From: Candidatus Jordarchaeales archaeon
Lineage (GTDB): Archaea > Asgardarchaeota > Jordiarchaeia > Jordiarchaeales > Freyrarchaeaceae
Assembly: GCA_038858525.1 (NCBI GenBank)
Contig: JAWCFL010000011.1
Span: 30,545-62,544, forward strand
DNA: 32,000 bases
Reading direction: 5' to 3'
Below, one piece after another: positions 5,337 to 19,066 of the stretch; position 1 is the first letter of the stretch, and each line of letters begins with the position of its first letter. The notes under the pieces were generated by a model that searched no databases, had not been told where the DNA came from, and saw only the letters and a program-made list of their open reading frames with translations. The translations under genes were made by a program, and so were the position numbers.

Positions 5337-6008
5337 TTGAATGAGGAATTATGGTTTACACTGTACGAGATAGCATTAGTAGGGGGATGCGAAGGAGGAA
5401 TTGATATTTCGTCAACGCGTCTTGCAGACCGGCTTGGGGTTAGCCAGCAGACCGCCGCAAGAAGGCTCCAAGACTTAGAGAAAGAGGGACTCATAGTCAG
5501 AGAGATAACGGCTAAGGGGCAAAACATCAAGATAACTAAGGAGGGAGTAAGAAGGCTTTGGGAAGTTTATGTTGGACTTAAAAGAGTTTTTGAGGAGAAG
5601 CCTCAAACAATCAAGGTGAAGGGAGAAGTCTTCAGCGGCATGGGAGAAGGAAGATACTATGTGTCCATTGACGGATATAGGAAGCGTTTTGAAGAAAAGT
5701 TGGGATTCACGCCTTACCCGGGAACATTAAACTTAAAGTTGAAGTCGTATCACGATGTGCAAACGAGAAGACTTCTGGAAGCTTACCCGGGGATCATCAT
5801 AGAGGAGTTCGAAGAAGGAGGACGTACCTTCGGCAGAGTGAAGTGTTTCAGGGCTCTAATCGAAGGTAAGATTGAAGGAAGCCTTTTGCTCATCAACAGG
5901 ACACATTACGGAGATGATGTTGTAGAAATTATCTCCCCCGTATTCCTTAGGGAGGCGCTCAACTTGAAAGATGGAGAAAACGTAACAATATACGTAATCC
6001 TTGAGTAG
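5337..6008 (+). CDS. ribK: CTP-dependent riboflavin kinase with N-terminal winged-HTH (RbkR-type regulator)
   Basis: HTH LADRLGVSQQTAARRL followed by GEVFSGMGEGRYY, LGFTPYPGTLN, RTHY, VEIISPVFLR. AAGGTGA Shine-Dalgarno upstream. Confidence 0.92.
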   Translation: MNEELWFTLYEIALVGGCEGGIDISSTRLADRLGVSQQTAARRLQDLEKEGLIVREITAKGQNIKITKEGVRRLWEVYVGLKRVFEEKPQTIKVKGEVFSGMGEGRYYVSIDGYRKRFEEKLGFTPYPGTLNLKLKSYHDVQTRRLLEAYPGIIIEEFEEGGRTFGRVKCFRALIEGKIEGSLLLINRTHYGDDVVEIISPVFLREALNLKDGENVTIYVILE

Positions 6009-6025
6009 TTGCTGGAGGAAGGGCT

Positions 6026-6508
6026 ATGAGAAAGGTGATGGTCTTCGGAACATTTGATATACTACACGCTGGCCACTTAAAATTCCTAGAAGAAGCGAAG
6101 AAGCTTGGAGGCAAGGATGCGAAGCTTATTGCAGTAATAGCGAGAGATTCTACCGTGCAAAAAGTAAGAGGGCGCCCTCCAATATTCAGCGAAGAAGATA
6201 GAAGGAAATTGATAGAGGGACTAAAGCCGGTTGACGAAGCTATTCTAGGATATGAAGGCGGCGACATGCTTAAAATAGTTGAGGAGAAGAAGCCTGACGT
6301 TATAGTGCTCGGATATGACCAAAGAAAAGACATGGATCAATTCATTGATGAGTTAAGAAGTAGAGGGATCAATGCTGAAGTCTATCGGCTCCCGAAGTAC
6401 GGAGAATTGAACAGCTCAAGTATAATAGTCAAAAAAATAGTTGAAATGGCTAATAAGTGGGGGATTAGTGGGAGAGAGTTAGAGAGGCGGGAGCGGAGCG
6501 GCCGCTAG
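6026..6508 (+). CDS. ribL: Archaeal FAD synthase (cytidylyltransferase fold)
   Basis: VMVFGTFDILHAGH (HxGH), VIARD, PDVIVLGYDQ, SSS motif; directly downstream of ribK. Confidence 0.88.
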   Translation: MRKVMVFGTFDILHAGHLKFLEEAKKLGGKDAKLIAVIARDSTVQKVRGRPPIFSEEDRRKLIEGLKPVDEAILGYEGGDMLKIVEEKKPDVIVLGYDQRKDMDQFIDELRSRGINAEVYRLPKYGELNSSSIIVKKIVEMANKWGISGRELERRERSGR

Positions 6509-7270
6509 GAGGCGAAGCGCCTCTATCTCTTTAAAGTGAAGAGACCCAGTAACGATTAAGATGTGAGGAGGAGACCCAAAATCGTAGTATAAAAGGTTGC
6601 GAGGGTAATCTGCTTTAACGGTTGGGTTCTCGGACCCCGCTCGCGCCACGCCAACCATTAGGGTCTTTTCCAGGAGGGGGGATTGAGAGGATAACTTATG
6701 CTCTAGTTCTAGCAATATTGCTACTCCTTCGTTGACCGTCATGAAACGTTTTTCCTCAGCTCGGACGTCAAGGAAAACCAAGGTGTGTAATCCGCGCTCT
6801 ATGTTCTCTCGAACAACTAGATATGGCGTCTCGGGAAAGTAATTCTCTTCCGGGAAGGGTATTGTTACAGATCTGCCAAACTTATAGTTTTCCAATCCGC
6901 AAATGCTTGGGGCAGCTGAATAAATGGATACGCCATGAATAACACGCGTTTTCACTCCAAGCTTTTCAGCTTCCAGCCTGAGCGCGACATGCGTCGTAGC
7001 CACCATAGGGTCTCCTGGAACAAGAATCGCCACACGCTTATCTCTTGCGCGAGAAAGTATTTCTTCCACATTCTCCTCAACATCTTTTCTGGTGAGAGCG
7101 CGGACATTCTTACCGATCAAGGCTTCTAAGTTATCCTTTGTTAAGCCTCCCATAACGCTTGTGTAAGCTTCAAAGTATACTTCATCTGCAGAACGGGCGG
7201 CATTTAGCCCCTTAAGAGTTATGTCATCGATACCCCACAAGCCTAAGCCAATGAAGATGAGTTCCCCCAA
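6479..7270 (-). CDS. dph5: Diphthine synthase
   Basis: LIFIGLGL...ITLKGL, EAYTS, GDPMVATTH, YKFGRSVTIPF, GLHTLVFLD, FGSPPHILIV. Confidence 0.94.
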   Translation of the reverse strand: MGELIFIGLGLWGIDDITLKGLNAARSADEVYFEAYTSVMGGLTKDNLEALIGKNVRALTRKDVEENVEEILSRARDKRVAILVPGDPMVATTHVALRLEAEKLGVKTRVIHGVSIYSAAPSICGLENYKFGRSVTIPFPEENYFPETPYLVVRENIERGLHTLVFLDVRAEEKRFMTVNEGVAILLELEHKLSSQSPLLEKTLMVGVARAGSENPTVKADYPRNLLYYDFGSPPHILIVTGSLHFKEIEALRLLAAAPLPPL

Positions 7271-7285
7271 AAGAAAACCTCCAAC

Positions 7286-8356
7286 TTAAAGCTCGCGTTT
7301 TATTTCGTTCGGCTTGAAAATGCCTTTCTCGGTAACCATGAAGGTGACGTATTTTGAGGGAGTTAAGTCGAATGAAGGGTTCCTGGCATTAACGTTCGGG
7401 TGTATTTTAATGTGAGTGATTGTTCCTAACTCTGGATTGTATCCTTTCACGTGCGTGATTTCCTCTGATGAGCGCTCCTCAACTTTTACAGATGAACTCG
7501 AAGAGGCGAAAGTTGTAGTAGGCGCTGCGACTATGAACGGAACACCATTCTCATACGCCGTAACCGCGAGCATGTACGTTCCTATTTTGTTTACCACGTC
7601 TCCGTTTGGAAGTATTCTGTCTGCTCCAACTAAGACAGCGTCAACCTCCCTTCTCTGGAGATAATATCCTGCAGCTGAGTCAACTATAAGGCAGTGGGGT
7701 ATTCCTTCTTGGGTTAGCTCCCAACTAGTAAGCCTACCCTGTAGCCAAGGGCGAGTTTCCGTCGCGTAAACAAAGATGTTTTTTCCCTGAGCGTGGGCAA
7801 ATCGAACTATGCTTAGCGCGGTTCCGTAGTCTACTGTTCCAAGCGCGCCTGGGTTGCAATGAACCATGACCTTAGCATTTTTAGGTATTAGGCTACTTCC
7901 CAGCTCGCCTATCCTTCTGCAAGCTTCAAGGTTCTCTTGGGCTATTTTTCTCGCCTCACAAAGGGCTGCTTGAGCGACTTCATCGGAGGAGTTTAAATCT
8001 TCGCACATTCCTAAGACGCGGGTAACCATGTTTTGCATGTCTACAGCTGTAGGCCTCGTGGAAAGAAGGTGGGCGGCAACCTTGCTAAGAAAAGCTTTCA
8101 GCTCCTTTGAAGGGAGATGACGATTTTGAAGAGCTGCTTGAGCTAGCCCATAACATGCGGCTACCCCTATGGCTGGCGCTCCTCTAACCTTCATCATCCT
8201 TATGGCCTCGGCGACTTCCTCCACGTTCTTTGCCCTATAAATTGAAAACTCGAACGGGAGCTTTGTCTGATCGATCATGCAAACAACGTCCTCCTCCATC
8301 CATACGGTTTGGTACTCCCTTACCTCACTACCGATTCTGACTTTCATAGCAACCAT
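7286..8356 (-). CDS. mtnA: Methylthioribose-1-phosphate isomerase (eIF-2B-related family)
   Basis: IDQTKLP, MKVRGAPAIG, TRPTAVD, HCNPGALGT..YGTAL, ETRPWLQG, VGADRI..NGDVVNKIGTY, NPSFDLTP. Confidence 0.85.
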   Translation of the reverse strand: MVAMKVRIGSEVREYQTVWMEEDVVCMIDQTKLPFEFSIYRAKNVEEVAEAIRMMKVRGAPAIGVAACYGLAQAALQNRHLPSKELKAFLSKVAAHLLSTRPTAVDMQNMVTRVLGMCEDLNSSDEVAQAALCEARKIAQENLEACRRIGELGSSLIPKNAKVMVHCNPGALGTVDYGTALSIVRFAHAQGKNIFVYATETRPWLQGRLTSWELTQEGIPHCLIVDSAAGYYLQRREVDAVLVGADRILPNGDVVNKIGTYMLAVTAYENGVPFIVAAPTTTFASSSSSVKVEERSSEEITHVKGYNPELGTITHIKIHPNVNARNPSFDLTPSKYVTFMVTEKGIFKPNEIKREL

Positions 8357-9184: not shown

Positions 9185-11500
9185 GTGAAGAAAAGATGCG
9201 AAATACTGTGCAGCGGAGTAGTTCAAGGAGTCGGCATGCGGCCTTTCGTGTACCGGATAGCTGTCAAAAACAGCTTAACAGGCTACGTCCTCAACTTGGG
9301 GGATGCCGGAGTAAAAATAGTCGTTGAAGGAGAAGAGGAAGACATTAAAAGGTTTATGATGGAGCTAAAGGAGAAAAAACCCCCACTGGCAAAGTTTGAG
9401 AAGATAAGGACGAAGTGGGGAAAGGCACGCGGAGAGTTCGATACGTTCACCATAGAGAAGAGTAGCAGTGACAGGATACTCGAAAGTTCCTACATACCTC
9501 CAGACGTGGCGATCTGCAATAACTGCATACAGGACATGTTGAACCCTAATGATAGGCATTACAAGTATGCGTTCACATGCTGCGCGGACTGCGGTCCAAG
9601 GTATACATCAATAATAGGTTTACCCTACGATAGAGAACTAACAACGATGCGAGACTTCCCTCTGTGCCCTCACTGCATGGAGGAATACATGAACCCTATG
9701 GATAGGAGATACCACGCTCAAGGAATATGCTGCCCTATCTGCGGCCCAAAACTCACACTCCACGCGAAAAACGGTGAGCTCATAGATTGCAACAACCCAA
9801 TAGCGGAGGCAGCCAGATTAATAAATGAGGGGGCCATAGTGGCTGTGAAGGGTATAGGGGGAAGCCACCTAGCGGCGCTCACAACTGATGACGAATGCGT
9901 ACTTAAACTAAGGCAGAGGAAAAGAGACAGGAAGTATAAGCCCTTCGCTGTCATGTCTCTGAGCCTCAACGAAGTAAGAAAGTATGCAGAAGTTAGTCAA
10001 AAAGAAGAGGAGGTTCTAACATCCTTCAGACGACCCATAGTGCTACTCAGGAAAAAAGAGGACTTTCCGCTTTCTAAGTGGATTAGCCCCGGACTACACA
10101 ACATAGGTGTGATGCTGCCATACTCGGGACTGCACATACTCTTGCTGCAAGAGGTCACAGACCCCGCTGTCATAATGACCAGCGGAAACGCGTCAGGAAA
10201 GCCCATAGCAGCAAGCAACGAGGAAATCATCACCCACCTTAGCGACTTAGCAGATTACTTCTTGCTCCACAACAGAGTGATATACCAGAGGTGTGACGAC
10301 TCTGTTGTCAAGATAGTAAATGGAAAAACCAAGCTGATACGCAGGTCAAGAGGCTATGTGCCAGAACCAATAGAGACGCCGATACCGTACAGGGGAAAAG
10401 GAATACTGGCAGTCGGACCAGAACTAACAGTAACAGTAACCGTTATGAAGGGAAGTAGGTGCTATGCCAGTCAACACATAGGCGACGTCTCAGGCGACCT
10501 CGACATGATGGAGTTCCACGAAAGCGTCACGACACACCTGCTAAAACTTTTAAACGTAAATCCTGAAGCCTTGGCATGTGATCTGCACCCTCAATTCATG
10601 ACGACCAAGATAGCAGAAGAATACGCTGAAAAATGGCAGGTCCCGCTGGTGAGGGTTCAGCACCATCATGCCCATGCGGCTGCACTAAAAGCGGAGCACA
10701 AATTGGATGAACCCATAGTCTGCATAGCGTGTGACGGCGTCGGCTACGGGCCAGATGGAACTATATGGGGTGGAGAAGTGCTACTCTCAGACTATGAGTC
10801 GAGCGAGAGACTCGGGCACCTTGCCCCCCAACTTATGCCCGGAGGAGACCAAGCCACTAAGTACCCAATAAGAATGGCGGCATCCATTCTCAGCCGTGTT
10901 TTGTCCGACAGTGAACTGAGGGATATTCTAACATCAAAATACATTGACGGGTTTAAATACGGGGAAAAAGAGGTGGAAGTTGTCCTAAAGATGATAAGAG
11001 ACGCTAAGGGGCCTCTCTCAACCAGTACAGGGCGCGTCTTAGACGCTATAGCAGCCCTGCTAGGAATATGCATGGAGAAAACATATCAAGGAGAGCCAGC
11101 GATGAGGCTTGAGGCAGCGGCGGCAAAAGGCAAACCAACCCTGAAAATAGAGCCCAAAATAAGTCGCTCAGACGGACGATACGTACTTGACACGTCCCAA
11201 ATACTTTCTGAAGTGCTACAGGCGTTAGGAAAACATAGAGTAGAGGACTTAGCGGCATCCGCCCAGCACGCTATAGCAATAGGATTAGCGGACATCGCCG
11301 TGAACGTGGCACAAGAGGAAAATGTGAGAACCGTTGGGTTTACAGGAGGCGTAGCATACAACGAAGCCATAACAAAAACCATAAGAAAGCACGTCGAAAA
11401 AAACGGGCTAGTTTTTATACAGCACTCAGTTATACCTCCAGGCGACGCTGGAGTGAGCATAGGGCAAGCGATAGTGGCGGCGTGCAGATTATTAGGTTAG
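9185..11500 (+). CDS. hypF: Hydrogenase maturation carbamoyltransferase HypF
   Basis: Acylphosphatase GVVQGVGMRPFVYR, Zn fingers (CNNC, CADCGPRY, CPHC, CPICGP), KGIGG, QHHHAH, DGVGYG, PPGDAGVSIGQ. Confidence 0.96.
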   Translation: MKKRCEILCSGVVQGVGMRPFVYRIAVKNSLTGYVLNLGDAGVKIVVEGEEEDIKRFMMELKEKKPPLAKFEKIRTKWGKARGEFDTFTIEKSSSDRILESSYIPPDVAICNNCIQDMLNPNDRHYKYAFTCCADCGPRYTSIIGLPYDRELTTMRDFPLCPHCMEEYMNPMDRRYHAQGICCPICGPKLTLHAKNGELIDCNNPIAEAARLINEGAIVAVKGIGGSHLAALTTDDECVLKLRQRKRDRKYKPFAVMSLSLNEVRKYAEVSQKEEEVLTSFRRPIVLLRKKEDFPLSKWISPGLHNIGVMLPYSGLHILLLQEVTDPAVIMTSGNASGKPIAASNEEIITHLSDLADYFLLHNRVIYQRCDDSVVKIVNGKTKLIRRSRGYVPEPIETPIPYRGKGILAVGPELTVTVTVMKGSRCYASQHIGDVSGDLDMMEFHESVTTHLLKLLNVNPEALACDLHPQFMTTKIAEEYAEKWQVPLVRVQHHHAHAAALKAEHKLDEPIVCIACDGVGYGPDGTIWGGEVLLSDYESSERLGHLAPQLMPGGDQATKYPIRMAASILSRVLSDSELRDILTSKYIDGFKYGEKEVEVVLKMIRDAKGPLSTSTGRVLDAIAALLGICMEKTYQGEPAMRLEAAAAKGKPTLKIEPKISRSDGRYVLDTSQILSEVLQALGKHRVEDLAASAQHAIAIGLADIAVNVAQEENVRTVGFTGGVAYNEAITKTIRKHVEKNGLVFIQHSVIPPGDAGVSIGQAIVAACRLLG

Positions 11501-12006
11501 AAGTTGCCAGCAACCATAAACGGCTTAGCATACTCCTCAACCAACTGAATTAACTGCTCCTCTAGCTTTTTAAGATGGGGACTTGATTCCCCATAATCCA
11601 ACCTCAACCTTTCGCGATAACTCGATATGAGGCTTGAAAGCTCAATGTAAGGCGCCAAGTTTGGAGTGTCCAGTAGCCCAACGTAACCTAGAAGGATTAA
11701 CGTGTAAATTGACTTCACAACGTTCCTACAAGCCTGCTCGAGTACACGTCTAAAGGCGCCCTTTGTAACCCCGCGGGCAAGACGTGGCCTCCGCCCTCTC
11801 GCATTCCTAGAAGCTCTCAGGAGACCTTTGAGGGAATACTGAACTCCTCTTCCAGCGCTTTCATCTAGAAGAAAATGGATGACCAGCGTTTCAAACTGTA
11901 TACGGGTGAGGTTAGACGAAGAGAGAAGGCGAGAAACAATAGAGTCGCCGAGGAGGCGACGCAGAAAATCCTCTAATTCGTTCAGTTCGACGTCTGCTCT
12001 GTCCAT
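11497..12006 (-). CDS. Hypothetical protein with a possible Bat/sigma-70 region 4-like HTH
   Basis: Pattern LTRIQFETL...GVTKGAFRRVLEQACRNV resembles HTH_10 (LTxRQxExL...GVSxST...L..A). Translationally coupled to the upstream RHH gene (2-nt gap). Confidence 0.6.
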   Translation of the reverse strand: MDRADVELNELEDFLRRLLGDSIVSRLLSSSNLTRIQFETLVIHFLLDESAGRGVQYSLKGLLRASRNARGRRPRLARGVTKGAFRRVLEQACRNVVKSIYTLILLGYVGLLDTPNLAPYIELSSLISSYRERLRLDYGESSPHLKKLEEQLIQLVEEYAKPFMVAGNF

Positions 12007-12008
12007 CT

Positions 12009-12440
12009 TCAGCCACCTTCACTTTTCAATTTGCCAAGCGTAGTGTACTGCTCCTCTAGGAGCTGGAATAATCCAAGTTCCTTCAGCTCTAACTCATCAA
12101 AAACTGTTTTCATCTTCTCCAGTATGGCAAGCCTGCAGAATACTGTTGCTCCACGCTCCCCAAACTTTTTCTTGAGCAGGGAGATGAAGCTACTAGGAAG
12201 CCTTACGTTGAAGTTTTGATCAAGCCGAGTCTTAGGGTCCTTCCTCACATAGACTATTTTCTCCACTACCTGGACGGGTAGAGGCGACGTGACCTTCTCA
12301 TCCACCAGAGATAATGAGGCCGCTGGCTGAGGATGAGCCACGGCACCTTCCTCATAGTTAAGAGGAGCAGGAGGCTGTGAGATTTGCCCATACTTTTCCT
12401 GCTCCTTGACTTTCTTCGCTATGTCAACCAGCCTCGTCAT
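12009..12440 (-). CDS. Ribbon-helix-helix DNA-binding protein with a long disordered N-terminus (ParG/SegB-like architecture)
   Basis: Pro/Gln/Ala-rich residues ~18-56, then NFNVRLP (strand), SSFISLLKKKF (helix A), G, ATVFCRLAILEKM (helix B). GGGTGA SD upstream of the ATG. Confidence 0.65.
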   Translation of the reverse strand: MTRLVDIAKKVKEQEKYGQISQPPAPLNYEEGAVAHPQPAASLSLVDEKVTSPLPVQVVEKIVYVRKDPKTRLDQNFNVRLPSSFISLLKKKFGERGATVFCRLAILEKMKTVFDELELKELGLFQLLEEQYTTLGKLKSEGG

Positions 12441-12463
12441 CTTATATCACCCGCATCGATGCG

Positions 12464-12492
12464 CGACATCGATATCTGAAAGCGATATCAGA
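12464..12492. promoter_or_regulatory. GATATC/CGACATC motif cluster upstream of the RHH gene
   Basis: CGACATCGATATCTGAAAGCGATATCAGA; adjacent 12-bp palindrome CGCATCGATGCG at 12452-12463. Confidence 0.5.
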
Positions 12493-13548
12493 CTACTCTG
12501 GAACCTCCTCGATGCATGGTAAAGCATCCACAAGGGCTCCATCGATCACAGGGCTTCCTCCATCCTTGAACCTGTTAGCAGCAACGAACACTGCCTGGTT
12601 GCAAAGCATACGAAGGTCACGCCCCACACCCATAGACTTTCGTTTCAAAGCAGGAACCGCATCCTCGGTGAAGGGGTGTATTTCAAAAGAGGACTCGTCA
12701 AACTCCTTAAGGCGGCCGCTAGCCCAATAAAGCCTCCTGCCGATAAATTCCCTGACGCCGCGCTCATCCAATGGTTCAAGCTCGATCTCCCAACATCTAT
12801 CATAGAGGTGAGGGACGCCTTCCTTGAGACCTATAGCATGAGTCTTCGTTCCAGTCAAAACGAGCATGCATATCATCTGATCCTCGTCGCCCTCCTCCGC
12901 AGCCCGCTTAATCGCATTAATCTCCCCCTCGTCAAGCTTCATTTTTTTAAGCTTAAGGAACCGCTTGAATTCATCTTCTTCTTCAACTACGAACCGCTTG
13001 GCGTCCTTCAGCGTTAAGTCGCCGACCTCCTTGATCTTAATAAAGACCTCAACGTCGTTCTCGCCGAAATCATCTATGAATATCAACGTAAGATATCCAC
13101 TCAAAAGATATCGAAGCATGATATCATACTTGACCAGCACGTAAATGTCTTCAGCATTGGCCGATCGAGAATATGGAACCCTAAGTTTCTTCGCCAAAAC
13201 CTCAGCCATCTGCCTCACATACAGCTTACTCTGAGACACCATCACGGGATAGAAACGATACTCAGGGTCACCCTGCCTAGAAAGCTCTAGAAGGTCCCCG
13301 TAAATCAGCTCGAGAAGCGTCGTTTTACCCATGCCGGGAAACTCGCTCGTTATCAGTATATGCCGCTCCCTAGCCTTAATGTAATCATCGATCTCAACTA
13401 TTACATCATGAGGAGCCACGAACAGTTCAGGGTCGCTTAACCTCACACTCGAAAACGGGTTCCACCTCCACCCGAAGAAGGAGTAGTATGCATTTCTAAT
13501 CTCAGCCACCGAAGGGTAGAGACGCCCAACAGCACCCATACGCTCCAC
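12493..13548 (-). CDS. ExeA/GspA-like (AAA_22-type) AAA+ ATPase with no C-terminal DNA-binding domain
   Basis: YYSFFGWRWNPFS N-terminal signature, Walker A variant ITSEFPGMGKTT, Walker B LIFIDD, sensor-1 LVLTGT, LYDRCWEIELEPL, FTEDAV...GVGRDLRMLCNQA. Start GTG 13548 (GGAGGTG 5 nt upstream) or ATG 13539. Confidence 0.8.
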   Translation of the reverse strand: MERMGAVGRLYPSVAEIRNAYYSFFGWRWNPFSSVRLSDPELFVAPHDVIVEIDDYIKARERHILITSEFPGMGKTTLLELIYGDLLELSRQGDPEYRFYPVMVSQSKLYVRQMAEVLAKKLRVPYSRSANAEDIYVLVKYDIMLRYLLSGYLTLIFIDDFGENDVEVFIKIKEVGDLTLKDAKRFVVEEEDEFKRFLKLKKMKLDEGEINAIKRAAEEGDEDQMICMLVLTGTKTHAIGLKEGVPHLYDRCWEIELEPLDERGVREFIGRRLYWASGRLKEFDESSFEIHPFTEDAVPALKRKSMGVGRDLRMLCNQAVFVAANRFKDGGSPVIDGALVDALPCIEEVPE

Positions 13549-13559
13549 ACAACCACCTC

Positions 13560-13625
13560 CGACATCCGATATCGACAGCCGAAAAAGATACCAGAATCCA
13601 GATATCAAAACCAGAAAACGATACG
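13560..13625. promoter_or_regulatory. GATATC/CGACATC motif cluster upstream of the ATPase gene
   Basis: CGACATC-CGATATCG at 13560-13574, GATACC 13587, GATATC 13601, GATACG 13620. Confidence 0.45.
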
Positions 13626-13843
13626 CAAAATCTAAAGAGAAAAAACATCGTAATACGTAGAGAACACCAACAGAATACGAGAAATACGCGGGAAGGCCAG
13701 CTGCGATTGAAAAGGAACACGAGCTCAAGAAACACTAAGAGAGCTAAACGAGAACCAAGAGCGACGTAGGTTTACAAAAAAGTATACCCACAGGGAGCCT
13801 AAAGCAGAAGAGAACATCAAACGAAAAGGATAAATACCAGAAA

Positions 13844-13864
13844 TATGGAGGGAATACCTCCATA
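13844..13864 (-). terminator. Hairpin, possible terminator/attenuator downstream of the 120-aa gene
   Basis: TATGGAGG-gaata-CCTCCATA (8-bp stem), followed on the minus strand by a T-rich tract. Confidence 0.35.
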
Positions 13865-13900
13865 AATAAGAAAGACGAAGAGCACAACAGTATTAGTTAC

Positions 13901-13920
13901 TTTGGAACATGTGTTCCAAA
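13901..13920. repeat. 20-bp palindrome, copy 1
   Basis: TTTGGAACA-TG-TGTTCCAAA, perfect 9-bp arms. Confidence 0.7.
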
Positions 13921-13922
13921 AA

Positions 13923-14285
13923 TCACGACTTTTTGCTCTCCTTAAGCGCAGCATAAGAAGTAAGGAGGTCCACCCAAGATTTGAGAAAACCCTTGGCGAA
14001 CCCCGCCCTCTCAGGAAGGTTTGAGGAGAAAACTTGCGCCAGAGAATCCAGATACTTCGCGTATCTCCTAGCGTCTTCTGCTGAGAGACCATTCATTAGT
14101 GAAACTATTAGGGAAATCTGGTTAAGTTTTTCAAGACCTGCAAGCCAACCTCGCCAGGCCAGCTCAACCCATTTATCTTTAAACCGTGATTCCTCCAAAG
14201 CTGCTTTAGCGATTTCAATGGCCTTCTTGTGATCGCCTTCAGCCAATGCTTTAACGAATTCTTCAACTTCACTCAAAACAACCAC
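13923..14285 (-). CDS. Hypothetical all-alpha protein adjacent to oriC
   Basis: 120-aa ORF of amphipathic helices with thermophile-like composition. TTTATATA box at 14300-14307 (minus); the true start may be TTG 14276. Confidence 0.7.
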   Translation of the reverse strand: MVVLSEVEEFVKALAEGDHKKAIEIAKAALEESRFKDKWVELAWRGWLAGLEKLNQISLIVSLMNGLSAEDARRYAKYLDSLAQVFSSNLPERAGFAKGFLKSWVDLLTSYAALKESKKS

Positions 14286-14432
14286 CCTGCTTAATTAAAT
14301 ATATAAAAAGACGACTAATTAAGATTTCCAGCAAAATGACGATTTCAGCAATCGAAAATGGATGTCGTAATCAGATATCGATACTTGAATTGCATTTTTT
14401 ATTTTTGTTCAGTGCATGAAGTGCGACAAGCA

Positions 14433-14453
14433 CCCCTTCGTTTCTACTGTAAC
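14433..14453 (-). promoter_or_regulatory. ORB element (left) with G-string
   Basis: GTTACAGTAGAAAC-GAA-GGGG versus the archaeal ORB consensus GTTCCAGTGGAAAC-nnn-GGGG (2 core mismatches). Confidence 0.8.
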
Positions 14454-14607
14454 AGGTAAACTTATAAATCACTAAGCTAAACTTGAGCTTTTTATACAAA
14501 AAACTTATATCTTCTAAGTCCCAAGTATTTTGGGGGAGAGTTTTAATTTTAAAAGTTTAATTAATAAACTTAAGAGAGTTTTACTTTTTCCAGTTGAAAC
14601 AGTGGGG
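14433..14607. other. Chromosomal replication origin (oriC): inverted ORB pair flanking an AT-rich DUE
   Basis: Minus-strand GTTACAGTAGAAACGAAGGGG (14433-14453) and plus-strand TTTCCAGTTGAAACAGTGGGG (14587-14607). The 133-bp spacer has 33 G+C (25%), core 14541-14570 has 2/30 G+C. cdc6 lies 1.7 kb away and flanking genes diverge. Confidence 0.85.
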
Positions 14608-14615: not shown

Positions 14616-14629
14616 TTTCCTTCTTTTAT

Positions 14630-14649
14630 TTTGGAACACATGTTCTAAA
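14630..14649. repeat. 20-bp palindrome, copy 2 (inverted copy of 13901-13920, 19/20 identical)
   Basis: TTTGGAACA-CA-TGTTCTAAA; overlaps the stop codon of the 95-aa gene. Confidence 0.7.
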
Positions 14650-14932
14650 TGTTTTCTTCCTCTACAACTACAAAAACTCGGCACTTAACAATATCCTTGT
14701 ATTTCTTGAAGAAAGCATTGAAGACTTCTGCGTGTTCATCTTGAACTAGTATTGCGCTATCTCCTGCCCTGTCGCAACCATAGAAGTCCACAAGGCCTAA
14801 TTTTTGCCCCTTTAATGTTTTTCCTTCCTTGTTTTTCCATTTGTAGGCGTATCCGAAGAGTTCCTTGAAGAATTTCACCCTGCGCGGGTTACTCGAATGT
14901 TCCGCCTTTACGTCGTAGACGTATATTCTCAA
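14645..14932 (-). CDS. Small orphan Cas2/VapD-like (ferredoxin-fold) protein
   Basis: MRIYVYDV (Cas2-type hydrophobic strand + YD), RRVKFFKELFGY helix, later DSAILV (cf. Cas2 QxSVF). GGAGG SD upstream of the TTG. Confidence 0.6.
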   Translation of the reverse strand: MRIYVYDVKAEHSSNPRRVKFFKELFGYAYKWKNKEGKTLKGQKLGLVDFYGCDRAGDSAILVQDEHAEVFNAFFKKYKDIVKCRVFVVVEEENI

Positions 14933-15679: not shown

Positions 15680-15725
15680 ATATATTTACGCGTGTAAGTT
15701 TAACTTACCTCGTTTCCAGTGGAAG
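15680..15725 (+). promoter_or_regulatory. Putative TATA box plus ORB at the start of the wHTH gene
   Basis: ATATATTT 15680-15687, then GTTTCCAGTGGAAG 15712-15725. Confidence 0.65.
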
Positions 15726-15734
15726 GTGTGCTGG

Positions 15735-16205
15735 TTGGGGGCGAAGCGCTACAAGATCGAGATAGTTGATGCCGAGCGCAACGTGAAGGCTACTTTGACT
15801 ATTGAGGGTGATGTTTCCCCCCAGCTGGCGGCATCTCTTGTGGAGGAGCTTTCCGAGAAACTGTCTGAGGGCGGAGTGGCGGAGGAGGCACCTGCTGGGT
15901 TTGAGGCTTCCGAGGTTGACGCCGAGCTCCCCGACACTGAAAGTCTCTCGATGAAGGATAAAATTGAACTTGTACTGCTAAAGTATTTCCAGTATGGGTG
16001 GTTTACTTCTGGTGATGTTCATGAGCAGTTTACTCGGGTTTTTGGTGAGACCTCTCTAAGCGTGGTTTCAACATACTTGGCGAGGCTGCGTAGTGAGGGG
16101 CTCTTGGAGCGTAAGGGAACGAAAAAGCAGTATTATTACCGGCTTAAGGAAAGTGGCCGGCTCAGGGCTTCTAGGCTTAGCGAGCTTCTTCAGCTTCTTC
16201 CGTGA
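15735..16205 (+). CDS. Winged-helix DNA-binding protein upstream of cdc6 (beta-hairpin N-domain, acidic linker, wHTH)
   Basis: KRYKIEIVD...LTIEG N-domain, E/A/P-rich linker, then GWFTSGDVHEQF...SLSVVSTYLARL...GLLERKG...YYYRL (wHTH with wing). Start TTG 15735 after GGAAGGTG. Confidence 0.75.
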   Translation: MGAKRYKIEIVDAERNVKATLTIEGDVSPQLAASLVEELSEKLSEGGVAEEAPAGFEASEVDAELPDTESLSMKDKIELVLLKYFQYGWFTSGDVHEQFTRVFGETSLSVVSTYLARLRSEGLLERKGTKKQYYYRLKESGRLRASRLSELLQLLP

Positions 16206-16226: not shown

Positions 16227-16297
16227 GTTTCCAGTGTAATATTAATGGATATATTTGCCGGAAGTTAAGCATTATTCACCTTTGTTTCCAGTGGAAG
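16227..16297 (+). promoter_or_regulatory. cdc6 promoter region: mini-ORB, TATA-like box and ORB
   Basis: GTTTCCAGTGTAAT 16227-16240, ATATATTT 16249-16256, GTTTCCAGTGGAAG 16284-16297. Confidence 0.65.
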
Positions 16298-16317
16298 TAG
16301 GAAAAGTGGTGGTTTGT

Positions 16318-17565
16318 TTGGGTGAACGTTCTCTTGAGGCGCTTTTTGAAAGGTTTCTCTCAACCAAGATCTTCAAGAATCGTGACGTGTTGAGTCATAC
16401 TTATGTTCCTGACGAGTTACCTCACCGTGACGAGCAAATAGAGAAGGTTGGGTTAATTCTCGCCTCAGCTCTTAAGGGCGGCACTCCTTCGAACGTTTTC
16501 ATTTATGGAAAGACGGGTACAGGTAAGACTGCTGTCGTACGCTTCGTTCTTAAGCACCTTGTTGCTAAGTGTCACGAGCTGAATGTGCCTGCTCCCTTAC
16601 CCGCTTACCTTAACTGTAGAATTGTAAACACTAATTATCGTGTTCTGGCTCGGCTTTGCTCCTACTTAGGTGTCGAGGTTCCCTTTACGGGTCTGCCTAC
16701 CGATGAGGTTTACAGTAGGTTTAGGGACGTGCTTGATAGCAGGGACGTGTTGATGATAATCGTGCTCGACGAGGTTGAACGGTTAGTTGAGCGGGACGGT
16801 AGTAACGTCCTCTACGACCTAACTAGGATGAATCACACTGTTCTTAAGCGGGCGCGCGTCAGCATAATAGGCATCACGAATGACTTAACGTTCAAGGATA
16901 ACCTTGATCCTAGAGTGCTGAGTAGCTTAGGGGAAGAAGAGCTAGTTTTCCCGCCTTACACTGCCGCTGAGCTCAGGGACATTCTTTGGCAGAGGGCTCA
17001 GCTTGCCTTCAGAGAGGGCGCTCTTGAAGGTCCAGGAGTCATCAATCTTTGCGCAGCTATAGCCGCTAAGGAGCACGGGGACGCCCGTCGCGCCCTAGAC
17101 TTGCTTAGAGTCGCTGGCGAGATAGCTGAGCGGGAGGGCGCAGAAAAGGTTTCCGAAGAGCATGTGAGAGCCGCTCAACACGTCATCGAGCGAGATCACC
17201 TGGTTGAGGCACTGAGAACTCTCCCTATGCATTCTAAGCTTGTACTTTACACTATTTTTGAGTTGACTAAGCAGGGAAGGGGTAAAGCTAGGACCGGGGA
17301 CATATACAACTACTACTTGAACGTTTGCAGGCGTCTACATGTTGAGCCGTTAACTCAGAGGCGGGTTAGTAGCCTTATAAATGAGCTTGACATGCTGGGT
17401 GTCGTTGCGGCTCATCTTAAAAGCAGAGGACGCCATGGGCTCTCGAAAGAAGTGAAACTCAACGTTTCAGTAAATCAAGTCAAACAAGTCTTAGAGGAGG
17501 ATTCATTCATAAAGAAGCTTTCATCCAGTGACTCGTCTCCTCTCTTTGAGGCTAGTCCCCAGTAA
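16318..17565 (+). CDS. cdc6: Orc1/Cdc6 replication initiator
   Basis: IFKNRDVL..TYVPDELPHRDEQI, Walker A GKTGTGKT, Walker B VLDEVE, RVLSSL, FPPYT, GDARRALDLLR, C-terminal WH (LTQRRVSSLINELDMLG, GRHG). Start re-assigned to TTG 16318. Confidence 0.96.
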   Translation: MGERSLEALFERFLSTKIFKNRDVLSHTYVPDELPHRDEQIEKVGLILASALKGGTPSNVFIYGKTGTGKTAVVRFVLKHLVAKCHELNVPAPLPAYLNCRIVNTNYRVLARLCSYLGVEVPFTGLPTDEVYSRFRDVLDSRDVLMIIVLDEVERLVERDGSNVLYDLTRMNHTVLKRARVSIIGITNDLTFKDNLDPRVLSSLGEEELVFPPYTAAELRDILWQRAQLAFREGALEGPGVINLCAAIAAKEHGDARRALDLLRVAGEIAEREGAEKVSEEHVRAAQHVIERDHLVEALRTLPMHSKLVLYTIFELTKQGRGKARTGDIYNYYLNVCRRLHVEPLTQRRVSSLINELDMLGVVAAHLKSRGRHGLSKEVKLNVSVNQVKQVLEEDSFIKKLSSSDSSPLFEASPQ

Positions 17566-19066
17566 AGTCCAGCTGAGCCACCCAGAAGTCCTTCAAATTA
17601 ACGATGTACGGTTTTCCGGGTGTTGGTGTTAAGCCCATGGCTTTCTGATAATCTGTTTGGTCCTGAAATGTCCCTGAGTTTATCACGGTCACACCGCGAT
17701 AATTTTCTTGCCCATTCACGTGAAGGTGGCCACAATGAAAAATATCTGGGACCTTCTCGATAACTAAGAGGTCCATTGGTTCAGGGGACAATGGCGTTGA
17801 ACCATAGACTGGCGCTAAATGTCTTCCTCTAAGAAGCTCTATCATTGCTTTTTCCGGGTAGTGTGAGTCTATTGATAGAGCTGTCATCACGTCATTCAGC
17901 GGGTCTCCATGAAAGCATAACACCTCAACGCCGTGTATTCTAAAGTATGCTGGGTCTCCAAGCATTTCGACTCCTATTTCGTAAAGTGGTTCACTGTAAT
18001 CTTTAGGTATGGCTGGCTGGGGTAATGCTTGCCTAGTTGCATCGTGCCCGCCCGGTATAGCTATAGTCTTAACGTAGTCTGGTACGTTTTCAAGATGCCT
18101 CGCTGCTATTTCGTATTGCGCGTAGAGTTCCTCGACGACGAGCTCCTTCTCTTGATTCGGGTAGACTCCGACTCCATCCACTATGTCTCCTCCAATTACC
18201 AAGTATTTAACTTGTTTTGCCAAGCTTCTGCTTTTCTCGTCCCCTCTTTTGCCCTGAAGCCATTCTAGGAACCTTGTAAATGGTTTCTCCATGAATTTCT
18301 TGCTGCCGAAATGCGTGTCTGAAATGAAGACCGCCATTATGGGTTCATCAGCCCTCCTAGGTTTGTGATCGAATGGTATGTCGGGCCAAATGATGTTATC
18401 AGCCACAACGAACGCTCCATTACTCCTACCTTCCACGCAGACTACTTGGTCCAGCATAAGGTGTCGCGCCTTGTCTGTTAAGTTGCTCGGGATTAGAACG
18501 CTGACCACACCGTCAAGATCCTCAAGTTCTATGACCATGGAGCCACTTCGAGCCCTCGAAATTTCCCTGACTAATCCTATTAACTTGACTTCCTCGGCTC
18601 TGCCTACTTCACATGTCCTACATATCCCTTTTATGTCCCCCCTTTTCAGAAAGAGGTTGCTGAGACGCATATATCTATCCTTGAAGTAATTAACAAAGTC
18701 GTCTAGGGACCCACTGGTTCCTATCATCTTTGTTGGATCCATCACCACTTCAAAATCTTCATCTACTTCCCTAGCGGTTAGGGCCGGCTTAGGCTTCAAG
18801 CCTGGAGGAATTATACTTTGTGCTTCCTCGCTTTTAGGAGCTTTTACATTAGTTGCTTCTCGGGGCTCCTCTTTTTCAATTAGCTTCCTAATATCTTCCT
18901 CTGTTAGGACAAGTGTTCCCTCTGTGGCCTTAACCTTACTTATGACTAAGGAAGCTAAGCTAGGCTCAAGTGCCAATATGACGTCTAGCGCTCTGGGAGT
19001 AACTTGCAGTCCGGCTTCAAGCAACTCCTTAACTGTTCTCTTTGCAACCTGCGATGTCCCTATCAA
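17552..19066 (-). CDS. dp1: DNA polymerase D small (proofreading exonuclease) subunit DP1
   Basis: OB fold (LIGLVREI...LEDLDG), calcineurin-like motifs SDTHFGS, GDIVDG..VYPNQ, PGGHD, HG, HLAP, HCGHLH, NSGTFQ.QT. Confidence 0.94.
   Translation of the reverse strand: MIGTSQVAKRTVKELLEAGLQVTPRALDVILALEPSLASLVISKVKATEGTLVLTEEDIRKLIEKEEPREATNVKAPKSEEAQSIIPPGLKPKPALTAREVDEDFEVVMDPTKMIGTSGSLDDFVNYFKDRYMRLSNLFLKRGDIKGICRTCEVGRAEEVKLIGLVREISRARSGSMVIELEDLDGVVSVLIPSNLTDKARHLMLDQVVCVEGRSNGAFVVADNIIWPDIPFDHKPRRADEPIMAVFISDTHFGSKKFMEKPFTRFLEWLQGKRGDEKSRSLAKQVKYLVIGGDIVDGVGVYPNQEKELVVEELYAQYEIAARHLENVPDYVKTIAIPGGHDATRQALPQPAIPKDYSEPLYEIGVEMLGDPAYFRIHGVEVLCFHGDPLNDVMTALSIDSHYPEKAMIELLRGRHLAPVYGSTPLSPEPMDLLVIEKVPDIFHCGHLHVNGQENYRGVTVINSGTFQDQTDYQKAMGLTPTPGKPYIVNLKDFWVAQLDFTGD

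What the first reader, a model, noticed from the sequence alone, without database searches (positions are those of the whole stretch)
11497..14390. oriC-abutting AAA+ ATPase / ParG-like RHH / HTH operon: candidate undescribed chromosome partition or origin-control system
Seen: a minus-strand run starts ~150 bp from the left ORB. It comprises a 120-aa helical protein, a 351-aa ExeA-like AAA+ ATPase with no DNA-binding domain, a 143-aa protein with a disordered Pro/Gln-rich N-tail and RHH, and a coupled HTH-like protein; GATATC-family boxes lie ahead of the first three genes. Known: a flexible tail plus RHH is the architecture of centromere-binding adaptors (ParG, omega, Sulfolobus SegB), which normally pair with a ParA ATPase carrying a deviant KGGxxK[ST] Walker A. 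This ATPase lacks that motif and resembles the ExeA/TnsC/MuB-like group related to initiator AAA+ proteins. Inference: an RHH adaptor that loads a filament-forming or Cdc6-like AAA+ motor at oriC-proximal sites, acting in segregation or in modulating origin licensing.
Basis: partly seen in the sequence, partly recalled or inferred. Interest (0 to 1): 0.85.

Follow-up and report, generated by a model that had tools for sequence, protein, structure and literature searches.

The report
Asgard origin-side ATPase-adaptor repeat module
Next to the replication origin of a Jordarchaeum (Asgard archaeon) lies a conserved, undescribed gene pair, an ORC/ExeA-like ATPase and a small tailed protein that probably binds DNA, surrounded by short repeats found almost nowhere else in the genome; it looks like a new device for marking or handling origin-side DNA, but its function is untested.

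Summary
The four minus-strand genes, the ExeA-like AAA+ ATPase with no DNA-binding domain, the GATATC boxes and the origin 155 bp away are all present.

The functional unit is not the four-gene run. The core is the ATPase (12493-13548) and the small protein after it (12009-12440). This pair is single-copy in seven Asgard families (Jord-, Frey-, Thor-, Odinarchaeota and three others). p169 (HTH-like) and p120 belong to the wider origin neighbourhood and have different distributions.

New evidence:
- The locus is the densest GATATC window in the 2.09-Mb genome, holding 6 of 9 paired sites genome-wide.
- In a complete Freyarchaeum genome, 9 of 10 paired sites lie in 11.5 kb around the origin.
- Thorarchaeota carry a different repeat (TAWTAC, 9-bp phase), almost unique to a 13-40 kb domain around the same gene pair.
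- Repeat type follows the small-protein type, not p169.

The ATPase model is closest to Cdc6/Orc1, TnsC and MuB (Z 17-19) and to ExeA-like models.

The RHH fold of p143 is not confirmed, and ATPase-p143 binding gave no verdict. Function is inferred only: a centromere-like or origin-domain nucleoprotein system.

This scan has already reported the same module on other Asgard DNA.

The parts
12493..13548 (-). Core gene 1: 351-aa AAA+ ATPase (ExeA/AAA_22-like; base plus lid only, no DNA-binding domain). Walker A G72-x-G74-K75-T, Walker B IFIDDF, sensor-1 T234, conserved DR (R251) and R310/R313.
   Evidence: ORF; alignment and invariant residues; AF2 model pLDDT 88; AFDB ExeA-like hits TM 0.60-0.65; VIA Z 19.2-16.7 to Cdc6, Orc1, TnsC, MuB; single copy in 81/251 Asgard genomes.
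12009..12440 (-). Core gene 2: 143-aa small protein. N-terminal basic helix (res 3-17), Pro/Gln-rich disordered linker, conserved C-terminal domain of about 90 aa (putative RHH-like DNA binder; fold unconfirmed).
   Evidence: ORF; a small ORF of about 90-155 aa follows the ATPase in every locus examined; alignments; AF2 monomer pLDDT 58; sub-threshold RHH_1 only in f27 counterparts.
12471..12489 (.). Array 1: two GATATC boxes in 13-bp phase, between the ATPase stop and the p143 start (31-49 nt upstream of the ATG).
13079..13125 (.). Array 2: four boxes (AATATC, then three GATATC) in 13/15/13-bp phase inside the ATPase coding sequence; conserved in Jordarchaeum G002.
13568..13606 (.). Array 3: GATATC, GATACC and GATATC boxes 20-58 nt upstream of the ATPase GTG start.
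   Evidence: the same position in G002, G004 and G006
14361..14379 (.). Array 4: GATGTC plus GATATC in 13-bp phase, 76-94 nt upstream of p120, between p120 and the left ORB.
13650..13656 (-). Single GTATTAC box about 105 nt upstream of the ATPase. This is the motif that forms large arrays in Thorarchaeota and f27. It is also present upstream of the ATPase in f20 and f26 loci and at -108 in another Jordarchaeum.
11497..12006 (-). p169: 169-aa protein with a sigma-70 region 4 / DUF134-like recognition-helix segment (GVTKGAFRRVLEQACRNV). Translationally coupled to p143 here, but not a core component.
   Evidence: alignment; hhalign against DUF134 gave 84% probability, E 7.6e-6 over 24 columns; found without the ATPase in f12, f13 and f6, and near orc1/p159 there.
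13923..14285 (-). p120: 120-aa protein of no family. An origin-neighbourhood gene, not part of the ATPase pair.
   Evidence: Found only in f1 and, next to p95/p159, in f20; not found in Freyarchaeum; 374-bp gap to the ATPase.
14440..14600 (.). Context: origin core. Inverted ORB-like elements (14440-14452 minus, 14588-14600 plus, each followed by a G-string) flank an AT-rich stretch.
   Evidence: the same arrangement in Freyarchaeum G006 (L011 5824/5994)

Best explanation
The core is a two-gene module with a private set of DNA repeats.

Shown:
- An ORC/TnsC/ExeA-like AAA+ ATPase with intact catalytic motifs and no DNA-binding domain is always followed by a small protein built as basic N-terminal helix, disordered linker and short conserved C-terminal domain.
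- The pair is single-copy and vertically inherited in seven Asgard families.
- It sits in or beside a cluster of short phased repeats that occur almost nowhere else in the genome. These are GATATC in 13-bp phase in Jord-/Freyarchaeota and TAWTAC in 9-bp phase in Thorarchaeota and f27.
- Repeat type changes with the type of small protein.

Inferred:
- The small protein dimerises and binds the repeats through its C-terminal, RHH-like domain.
- Its tail and N-terminal helix recruit or regulate the ATPase.
- The ATPase then oligomerises on the adjacent DNA, as its nearest structural relatives (Cdc6/Orc1, TnsC, MuB) do.
- The result is a unique nucleoprotein landmark beside the origin. It would act as a centromere-like or origin-domain organiser, and the boxes at the promoters would also autoregulate the operon.

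p169 and p120 are neighbours from the conserved origin gene block, not parts of the machine.
For: ATPase identity:
- AF2 model, pLDDT 88.
- ExeA/GspA-type N-terminal domains fill the AFDB-cluster hits (E 3e-13 to 4e-10, TM 0.56-0.65).
- Best solved matches are Cdc6, archaeal Orc1/Cdc6, TnsC and MuB (Z 19.2-16.7), above clamp loaders and DnaA (Z 13-14) (Foldseek).
- A profile search of 1.84 billion proteins finds 7 close clusters, then an ExeA-like tail.
- Invariant Walker A, sensor 1 and arginines.

Pairing:
- A small ORF follows the ATPase directly in every locus examined, across all seven families, and in distant relatives P0034, P0036 and P0037.

Inheritance:
- One copy per genome in 81 of 251 Asgard genomes. 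By family: f1 4/4, f2 5/6, Odin 4/4, Thor 55/60, f20 3/3, f26 1/1, f27 3/5; two large families 0/54 and 0/26.
- The surrounding genes are housekeeping (PolD DP1, HypF, PAN, V-ATPase D).

Repeats:
- Own genome: 8 GATATC in 1.9 kb, the genome maximum. Exact pairs 3 of 4 genome-wide; pairs with one mismatch 6 of 9.
- Complete Freyarchaeum genome: 9 of 10 exact pairs within 11.5 kb covering the orc1, p159, p95, ATPase and p143 intergenic regions.
- Three Frey genomes have 15-21 pairs per 17-21 kb.
- Thor and f27: TAWTAC-N3-TAWTAC hits are 28/28, 18/19, 13/14, 6/7 and 8/9 inside one domain containing the pair. The reversed control gives 34 hits in all against only 4 true hits outside the domains.
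- 35 Thor loci show 1-2 sites per kb from -3 to +10 kb, against about 0.07 per kb genome-wide.
- Sites also lie inside coding sequence.

Co-variation:
- GATATC arrays occur only with the Jord/Frey type of small protein.
- TAWTAC arrays occur only in lineages with the Thor type (Thor and f27; f26 has that type but no array).
- Lineages with p169 but no ATPase have neither.

Origin proximity:
- 1-3 kb from orc1 in Jord, Frey, Odin and f20; 9 kb in f26; 10 kb from an Orc paralogue in f27; 35 kb from Orc1-2 in Thor.
- A distant pair lies 6 kb from an Orc1/Cdc6 gene.
Against: - No protein-DNA or protein-protein contact is shown.
- The RHH fold of the window's p143 was not recovered. The AF2 monomer is poor (pLDDT 58) with one long helix where RHH has two. 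There is no Pfam or PDB sequence match. The three small-protein types are not detectably homologous (hhalign E 0.04-0.47).
- The binder of the repeats could be another locally encoded protein.
- No repeat family was found for the Odin, f20 and f26 loci.
- Gene order around Asgard origins is conserved for unrelated genes too (hypF, CBS-HTH), so proximity alone is weak evidence.
- In Thorarchaeota the pair is far from the main orc1 (75 kb to about 1 Mb).
- In Jordarchaeum itself the boxes span only about 2 kb and mostly sit at promoters, which simple autoregulation would explain.
- ExeA-type ATPases in bacteria are not DNA enzymes.
Confidence: 0.45

Rival explanations
1. Plain autoregulated operon. 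The repeats are operators for a local repressor (p143 or p169) that controls the ATPase operon and a few neighbours. The ATPase does something unrelated to DNA, for example an ExeA-like assembly or chaperone role.
For: In the window, arrays 1, 3 and 4 lie 20-94 nt upstream of start codons. ExeA-like domains are the best AFDB matches. About half of the Thor sites are intergenic.
Against: Thor domains of 13-40 kb with 13-28 composite sites, many of them inside genes, are far more than an operator needs. The motif is nearly absent elsewhere in the genome although the reversed control occurs 34 times in all. Freyarchaeum boxes also lie at the convergent 3' ends of DP1 and orc1. The ATPase has no membrane or peptidoglycan part, and no ExeB-like or secretin context was seen.
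Confidence: 0.2
2. Replication-initiation accessory. A Cdc6-like AAA+ without a winged helix is brought to origin-side repeats by the adaptor, to modulate Orc1 binding, MCM loading or origin firing (licensing control).
For: The top solved matches are Cdc6 and Orc1 (Z 19.2-17.5). The pair is 1-10 kb from an orc gene in six of seven families. Freyarchaeum boxes sit upstream of orc1 and next to the ORB-DUE-ORB core. A distant pair lies beside Orc1/Cdc6, Topo VI and gyrase.
Against: In Thorarchaeota the pair and its repeat domain are 35 kb from Orc1-2 and 75 kb or more from Orc1-1. Two large Asgard families were not found to carry it (0/54, 0/26), so it is not a general initiation factor. No contact with Orc1 or MCM was tested.
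Confidence: 0.15
3. The repeats belong to another protein (p169, the CBS-HTH protein, or a factor encoded elsewhere), and the ATPase-small pair merely lies inside that protein's domain.
For: p169 has a well conserved HTH-like helix and lies inside the Thor repeat domain. A GTATTAC box upstream of the ATPase is shared by lineages whose small proteins differ (Thor, f27, f20, one in Jordarchaeum).
Against: Lineages with p169 but without the ATPase pair have no GATATC or TAWTAC arrays near p169. Array type follows the small-protein type. In f27 all 8 local sites start directly after the ATPase gene, over and beyond the small gene.
Confidence: 0.12
4. Remnant or part of a mobile element or defence system: a TniB/TnsC-like target selector, or a defence ATPase with an antitoxin-like partner.
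For: Structural similarity to TnsC and MuB; a weak PADLOC mad8 hit (E 0.006).
Against: Single copy, vertical distribution and conserved housekeeping synteny across classes. No transposase or integrase neighbours were seen among the ORFs compared or scanned. No relative in 2.9 million viral contigs.
Confidence: 0.03

Closest known systems
Archaeal SegAB with segS (Sulfolobales); SegB is an RHH protein with a disordered N-terminal part (PMC8682754, PMC12139799)
   Same: A two-gene operon of an NTPase plus a small tailed site-specific DNA binder, with short repeated sites next to the operon. Chromosomal, not plasmid-borne.
   Different: SegA is a ParA-type Walker ATPase; here the ATPase is an ORC/ExeA-like AAA+ with a classical GxxGxGKT P-loop. 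No sequence relation of p143 to SegB was found. The repeat domains are much larger in Thor- and Freyarchaeota (12-40 kb).
Plasmid type Ib partition cassettes (ParF-ParG; delta-omega of pSM19035)
   Same: The adaptor architecture (flexible N-tail plus a small dimeric DNA-binding domain), arrays of short direct or inverted repeats, and boxes overlapping the operon's own promoter (autoregulation). This rests on my knowledge of these systems. Protein-atlas feature neighbours of p143 are CB_ParB_C, DUF5388, MetJ, RHH_1/3/5 and McdB clusters at 0.85-0.91, which are leads only.
   Different: The motor class differs (AAA+, not a deviant Walker A ATPase). The RHH fold is unproven for p143. The module is chromosomal and restricted to Asgard archaea.
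TnsC / TniB / MuB (DNA-bound AAA+ filaments or rings steered by a partner's peptide)
   Same: Fold (Z 17.2 TnsC, 16.7 MuB); a stand-alone AAA+ base plus lid without a DNA-binding domain; dependence on a separate DNA-recognising partner is plausible.
   Different: No transposase, TniQ or transposon ends. Single-copy housekeeping context.
Archaeal Orc1/Cdc6 and eukaryotic Cdc6/ORC1
   Same: The best solved structural matches (Z 19.2-17.5 over about 250 residues) and a location next to orc1 and the origin.
   Different: No C-terminal winged helix and no Cdc6_lid or Cdc6_C Pfam match. About 12-16% identity. It carries the ExeA-type N-terminal FG(W/L)xxxPF motif, which Orc1 lacks.
ExeA/GspA-type AAA_22 ATPases (COG3267-like)
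   Same: The N-terminal motif and the whole ATPase domain align (TM 0.56-0.65). The profile search runs into this superfamily.
   Different: No membrane or peptidoglycan-binding extension and no secretion genes nearby. The window protein is below the AAA_22 cut-off (12.3 against 27 bits).

Membership tests
ExeA/GspA-like AAA_22 ATPases | N-terminal F-G-hydrophobic-x3-P-F motif followed by an AAA+ base and lid | tested here: met
   FGWRWNPF at residues 25-32; G26 and F32 are invariant across the family. ExeA-like N-terminal domains (residues 2 to about 260 of the hits) align to model residues 21-350, TM 0.56-0.65.
ExeA/GspA-like AAA_22 ATPases | Pfam AAA_22 (PF13401) at or above the gathering score | tested here: not met
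   The window protein scores 12.3 bits against a cut-off of 27. Relatives P0029, P0032, P0034, P0036, P0037 and P0041-43 pass (34-60 bits), so superfamily placement holds by transitivity only.
ExeA/GspA-like AAA_22 ATPases | C-terminal membrane or peptidoglycan-binding part and a secretion (ExeB/secretin) context | tested here: not met
   The 351-aa model is AAA+ base plus lid only. The neighbours are replication and housekeeping genes.
Orc1/Cdc6 initiators | AAA+ module of the initiator type | tested here: met
   VIA Z 19.2 (Drosophila Cdc6), 18.4 (S. solfataricus Orc1-1), 17.6 and 17.5.
Orc1/Cdc6 initiators | C-terminal winged-helix DNA-binding domain (Cdc6_C) | tested here: not met
   No Cdc6_C or Cdc6_lid hit, while the neighbouring true Orc1 gives 6.6e-30 and 3e-28. 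The alignment to Orc1 structures ends at their residue 288-293, before the winged helix.
TniB/TnsC/MuB transposition ATPases | Linked transposase and target-selector genes, within a mobile element | tested here: not met
   No such neighbours among the ORFs compared or scanned in 30 loci. Single copy and vertical.
ParA/SegA partition ATPases | Deviant Walker A KGGxxK[ST] | tested here: not met
   The P-loop is F-P-G-M-G-K-T-T, and the fold is AAA+.
Ribbon-helix-helix (MetJ/Arc/CopG) DNA binders, for p143 | A beta-alpha-alpha unit recognisable by profile or model | tested here: inconclusive
   The window protein has no RHH Pfam hit. The AF2 monomer has pLDDT 58 and shows one long helix, 83-113. 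There are no PDB matches by sequence or fold. The f27 counterparts hit RHH_1 below threshold (E 0.0027 and 0.04, model positions 2-34 of 39), but hhalign does not link them to p143. An RHH needs a dimer, which was not modelled.
Partition cassette (NTPase + centromere-binding protein + adjacent repeats) | An NTPase gene followed by a small DNA-binder gene in one operon | tested here: met
   The gene order holds in every locus examined, with overlapping or closely spaced genes. That the small protein binds DNA is inferred.
Partition cassette (NTPase + centromere-binding protein + adjacent repeats) | Repeat arrays next to the operon that are rare elsewhere in the replicon | tested here: met
Partition cassette (NTPase + centromere-binding protein + adjacent repeats) | The adaptor binds the repeats and stimulates the NTPase; loss causes missegregation | not testable with these tools
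   Needs EMSA or ChIP, ATPase assays and genetics.
Sigma-70 region 4 / DUF134-like HTH, for p169 | A recognition-helix segment alignable to the family | tested here: inconclusive
   hhalign of the p169 alignment against 11 Asgard DUF134 proteins gave 84% probability, E 7.6e-6, but over 24 columns only. No Pfam or PDB hit.

The most novel reading that the evidence does not exclude
Several lineages of Asgard archaea use a so far undescribed class of chromosome-marking machine. A tailed, sequence-specific adaptor coats a genome-unique repeat domain beside the origin and loads an ORC/TnsC-like AAA+ ATPase there. This would be a centromere-like partition or origin-domain organising system whose motor is an initiator-type AAA+ protein rather than a ParA, actin or tubulin homologue.
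Probability: 0.3. Interest if true: 0.9.

Novelty: new variant of a known kind. Interest (0 to 1): 0.78.

Why it matters
How Asgard archaea, the closest known archaeal relatives of eukaryotes, organise and segregate their chromosomes is unknown. The SegB component of the SegAB system is confined to Sulfolobaceae (PMC12139799).

This is a conserved, single-copy module with three parts that can each be tested at the bench: an ATPase, a tailed adaptor, and a repeat array that is nearly unique in each genome. If the ATPase is loaded on DNA by the adaptor, it would be a new motor class for a centromere-like system. It would also be an example of an ORC/Cdc6-like AAA+ module recruited by a separate DNA reader, which bears on how ORC-type proteins took on non-initiator chromatin roles.

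Even if the pair only regulates transcription, the genome-unique repeat domains mark the origin-side region in Jord-, Frey- and Thorarchaeota and can help locate origins in metagenome-assembled genomes.

Tried and rejected
- Complex prediction of the ATPase with p143 (alignments A1 and A4): score 0.24 and 0.11 against a mark of 0.32, so no verdict either way.
- AF2 monomer of p143: pLDDT 58, not usable for fold assignment. Foldseek with that model found nothing at E <= 0.001.
- PDB sequence searches with profiles of the p143 C-domain and of p169: chance hits only. With the ATPase profile: nothing better than E 0.0037, confined to the P-loop region.
- NCBIfam and PADLOC: nothing meaningful for any of the four proteins.
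- hhalign between the three small-protein types: not significant, so their homology is not shown. Only their position and architecture are shared.
- The idea that GATATC is counter-selected genome-wide in Jordarchaeum: rejected, observed/expected 0.95 under a Markov model.
- Search for a third repeat family around the Odin, f20 and f26 modules (k-mer enrichment; GTATAC, AACGTA): no convincing cluster.
- Strand polarity of the Thor sites: mixed, not pursued.
- Viral contigs: no relative of the ATPase.
- Literature searches found no description of this module.
- HypF link: hypF is adjacent in five families but 200 kb away in Odinarchaeota, so a hydrogenase-maturation role was set aside.

Full report
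**Organism and setting.** The window is contig C11:30545-62544 of a 2.09-Mb Asgard genome. Close homologues are labelled Candidatus Jordarchaeum, Jordarchaeia or Freyarchaeota.

To the right of the finding lie:
- p95 (14645-14932, minus strand);
- an AT-rich region with GTTAAC boxes;
- p159 (winged-helix-like);
- a bona fide Orc1/Cdc6 gene (16255-17565; Cdc6_C 6.6e-30);
- the PolD small subunit DP1 (17552-19066; DNA_pol_E_B 1.6e-16).

ORB-like elements lie at 14440-14452 (minus) and 14588-14600 (plus), each with a G-string, and bracket an AT-rich stretch. Further copies lie at 15712, 16227 and 16284. A complete Freyarchaeum genome has the same ORB-AT-ORB core at the equivalent place.

**The four genes.** All four ORFs exist, and each has a GGTG-type ribosome-binding sequence. 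The long 411-aa reading of the ATPase frame is unlikely, because orthologues start at MER.... None of the four reaches a curated Pfam, NCBIfam or PADLOC threshold.

**The ATPase.** A 16-sequence alignment shows:
- an invariant Walker A (G72, G74, K75);
- an acidic Walker B;
- sensor-1 T234;
- a conserved DR before beta-5;
- R271, R310 and R313;
- the N-terminal F-G-x-x-x-x-P-F motif typical of ExeA-type proteins.

The AF2 model (pLDDT 88, pTM 0.82) is an AAA+ base plus lid and nothing else. In AlphaFold-DB clusters all 30 rows are the N-terminal ATPase domain of ExeA/GspA-like or "ORC1/DEAH AAA+" proteins (E 3e-13 to 4e-10, TM 0.56-0.65).

Among solved structures, an exhaustive VIA search ranks the matches as follows (Foldseek agrees):

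| Match | Z |
|---|---|
| Drosophila Cdc6 | 19.2 |
| archaeal Orc1/Cdc6 | 18.4, 17.6, 17.5 |
| TnsC | 17.2 |
| human ORC1 | 16.8 |
| MuB | 16.7 |
| NLRs, clamp loaders, DnaA | 13-15 |

A profile search of 1.84 billion representatives gives seven close clusters (E < 1e-30), a second tier of proteins of about 300 aa, then the broad ExeA-like superfamily. Second-tier members pass Pfam AAA_22.

**What is conserved with it.** Profile searches of 251 Asgard genomes find exactly one copy in 81 of them.

| Family | Genomes with the ATPase |
|---|---|
| own family (f1) | 4/4 |
| Freyarchaeota (f2) | 5/6 |
| Odinarchaeota (f3) | 4/4 |
| Thorarchaeota (f7) | 55/60 |
| f20 | 3/3 |
| f26 | 1/1 |
| f27 | 3/5 |
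| f9 | 0/54 |
| f5 | 0/26 |

In every locus examined the ATPase is followed directly, often with overlapping stop and start codons, by a protein of about 90-155 aa. This also holds for the distant relatives P0034, P0036 and P0037.

These small proteins share an architecture: an N-terminal basic helix (RLVDIAKKVKEQE, LLGKYRKEE or RFKKIDGGKAS), a low-complexity linker and a short C-terminal domain. They fall into three types that hhalign cannot connect.

p169 behaves differently. It is found in the same seven families, but also in f12 (13/19), f13 (3/3) and f6 (1/1), where the ATPase was not found. There it still sits near orc1, p159 and the CBS-HTH gene. In Freyarchaeum it lies downstream of hypF on the opposite strand.

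p120 was found only in the window's own family and, beside p95/p159, in f20.

So the four-gene run is a local juxtaposition. The unit is ATPase plus small protein.

**Origin proximity.** The distance from the pair to an Orc1/Cdc6 gene is:
- 1-3 kb in Jord-, Frey- and Odinarchaeota and f20;
- 9 kb in f26;
- 10 kb to an Orc paralogue in f27;
- 35 kb to Orc1-2, and 75 kb or more to Orc1-1, in Thorarchaeota.

A distant pair lies 6 kb from an Orc1/Cdc6 gene, next to Topo VI and gyrase genes. The linkage recurs but is not absolute. Unrelated genes (hypF, CBS-HTH) share the same conserved block, so proximity alone is weak evidence of function. hypF is 200 kb away in Odinarchaeota.

**The boxes in this genome.** This is where the finding gains most.
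- Eight of the window's 11 GATATC sites lie in 12471-14379.
- In the whole genome (277 sites) this is the densest 2-kb window, with 8 sites against 3 for the next best.
- The sites form four small arrays in 13-15-bp phase: after the ATPase stop and before p143, inside the ATPase coding sequence, before the ATPase, and before p120.
- With one mismatch allowed, 6 of the 9 phased pairs genome-wide are here. Exact pairs are 3 of 4.
- The positions are conserved in two other genomes of the family.

**The boxes in Freyarchaeum.** The same box is amplified.
- 31 sites lie in 18 kb.
- 9 of the 10 exact pairs in the complete 3.58-Mb genome lie within 11.5 kb. They sit between DP1 and orc1, upstream of orc1, p95 and p159, in the ORF-poor stretch next to the ORB core, and before the ATPase and p143.
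- Three different Frey genomes carry 15-21 phased pairs per 17-21 kb.

**A different repeat in Thorarchaeota and f27.** Upstream of the ATPase in Thor, f26, f27 and f20 I found a GTATTAC/GTAATAC box instead. In Thor and f27 these are composite sites of TAWTAC half-sites, either direct in 9-bp phase or inverted. The counts of TAWTAC-N3-TAWTAC are:

| Genome | Hits inside one domain / genome-wide |
|---|---|
| G127 (Thor) | 28/28, in one 40-kb domain |
| G015 (Thor) | 18/19 |
| G077 (Thor) | 13/14 |
| G244 (Thor) | 6/7 |
| G237 (f27) | 8/9 |

Each domain contains the ATPase pair. The reversed control pattern occurs 34 times in all across these genomes, but the true pattern occurs only 4 times outside the domains.

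Across 35 Thor loci the density is 1-2 per kb from -3 to +10 kb, against about 0.07 per kb genome-wide. Sites lie inside coding sequence as well as between genes.

**Which protein do the repeats follow?**
- GATATC arrays occur only with the Jord/Frey type of small protein.
- TAWTAC arrays occur only in lineages with the Thor type of small protein.
- Lineages that have p169 but lack the pair have neither.

It is correlation, not proof.

**Is p143 an RHH?** This is not settled.

For:
- the sequence FNVRLPSSFISLLKKKFGERGATVFCRLAILEKM fits a strand-helix-turn-helix pattern;
- the f27 counterparts hit Pfam RHH_1 just below threshold across nearly the whole model (E 0.0027 and 0.04);
- the repeat geometry (short direct or inverted half-sites) is what RHH dimers read;
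- language-model neighbours are RHH-type centromere binders, at scores of 0.85-0.91 that count as leads only.

Against, or missing:
- no Pfam or PDB match for p143 itself;
- a poor monomer model with one continuous helix;
- no profile link to the f27/Thor type.

**Is p169 an HTH?** The segment GVTKGAFRRVLEQACRNV aligns with the recognition-helix region of Asgard DUF134 proteins (hhalign 84%, E 7.6e-6, 24 columns). This is suggestive only.

**Mechanism.** Shown: the gene pair, its inheritance, the fold class, the intact ATPase motifs, and the genome-unique phased repeats that follow the small-protein type.

Inferred:
- The small protein binds the repeats as a dimer or higher oligomer.
- Its tail and N-terminal helix engage the ATPase.
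- The ATPase oligomerises on neighbouring DNA like Cdc6/Orc1, TnsC or MuB.
- The resulting complex marks the origin-side region for segregation or organisation, with promoter-proximal boxes giving autoregulation.

The main alternatives, set out under the rival explanations, are pure autoregulation, a licensing accessory, another protein as the binder, and a mobile or defence origin. The complex prediction gave no verdict and RNA data could not be obtained.

**Comparison with known systems.** In logic it resembles SegAB/segS and type Ib partition cassettes (ParF-ParG, delta-omega). In ATPase fold it resembles Orc1/Cdc6, TnsC/MuB and ExeA. It fails defining tests for each family: no winged helix, no transposase, no deviant Walker A, no secretion or membrane part. 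I found no paper describing it.

**Relation to earlier notes of this scan.** After my own analysis, a look-up showed that the scan had already reported the Thor repeat domain with the same gene pair, and a similar origin-linked module in another Asgard genome. It had also reported the origin of this genome. My Thor counts reproduce those notes independently. New here are:
- the Jord/Frey GATATC family;
- its spread over the Freyarchaeum origin region;
- the co-variation of repeat type with small-protein type;
- the separation of p169 and p120 from the core.

**Verdict.** This is a new variant of the adaptor-plus-NTPase-plus-repeats theme with an unexpected ATPase class. Function is untested.

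Noticed in passing
window 13901-13920 and 14623-14642: A 20-bp palindrome, TTTGGAACACATGTTCCAAA, lies directly after the stop of p120, and a one-mismatch copy lies directly after the stop of p95. The two bracket the ORB-AT-ORB core. Freyarchaeum has TTAGAACACGTGTTCTAA after p95 (L011, about 5755). It could be a terminator or a protein site.
   Followed up: partly
window 13549-13922: A 374-bp gene-free, pyrimidine-rich (on the gene strand) spacer lies between p120 and the ATPase. It holds array 3 and the single GTATTAC box. No RNA family search was run on it.
   Followed up: no
L011 (Freyarchaeum G006) 5750-8030: A 2.3-kb AT-rich stretch with no ORF of 70 aa or more lies between the origin core and the ATPase. 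It carries about ten GATATC boxes, including a run at 7084-7116, and p120 is missing there.
   Followed up: partly
window 14645-14932 (p95) and 15726-16205 (p159): These two small genes flank the AT-rich region with the GTTAAC boxes and recur next to orc1 in Frey, Odin, f20 and f26 (p159 also in f6, f12 and f13). p95 has no family.
   Followed up: partly
L151 1-14900 (metagenome contig carrying P0036): A distant ATPase plus 113-aa pair sits between Topo VI A/B and an E2/Ub-like/E1 cluster. It is 6 kb from an Orc1/Cdc6 gene and 5 kb from gyrase B/A. A 300-bp extremely AT-rich region with AATAATTAATA-type repeats lies upstream of the ATPase.
   Followed up: partly
G015, G127, G077, G244, G237 (Thor and f27 genomes): Outside the repeat domain the TAWTAC-N3-TAWTAC pattern is nearly absent: 4 hits in about 16 Mb, against 34 hits in all for the reversed control. 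This suggests selection against ectopic sites.
   Followed up: partly
window 12970-13040 (ATPase residues about 166-219): The Jord/Frey ATPases carry a helical, highly charged insertion of about 35 aa after Walker B that Thor and Odin proteins lack.
   Followed up: no
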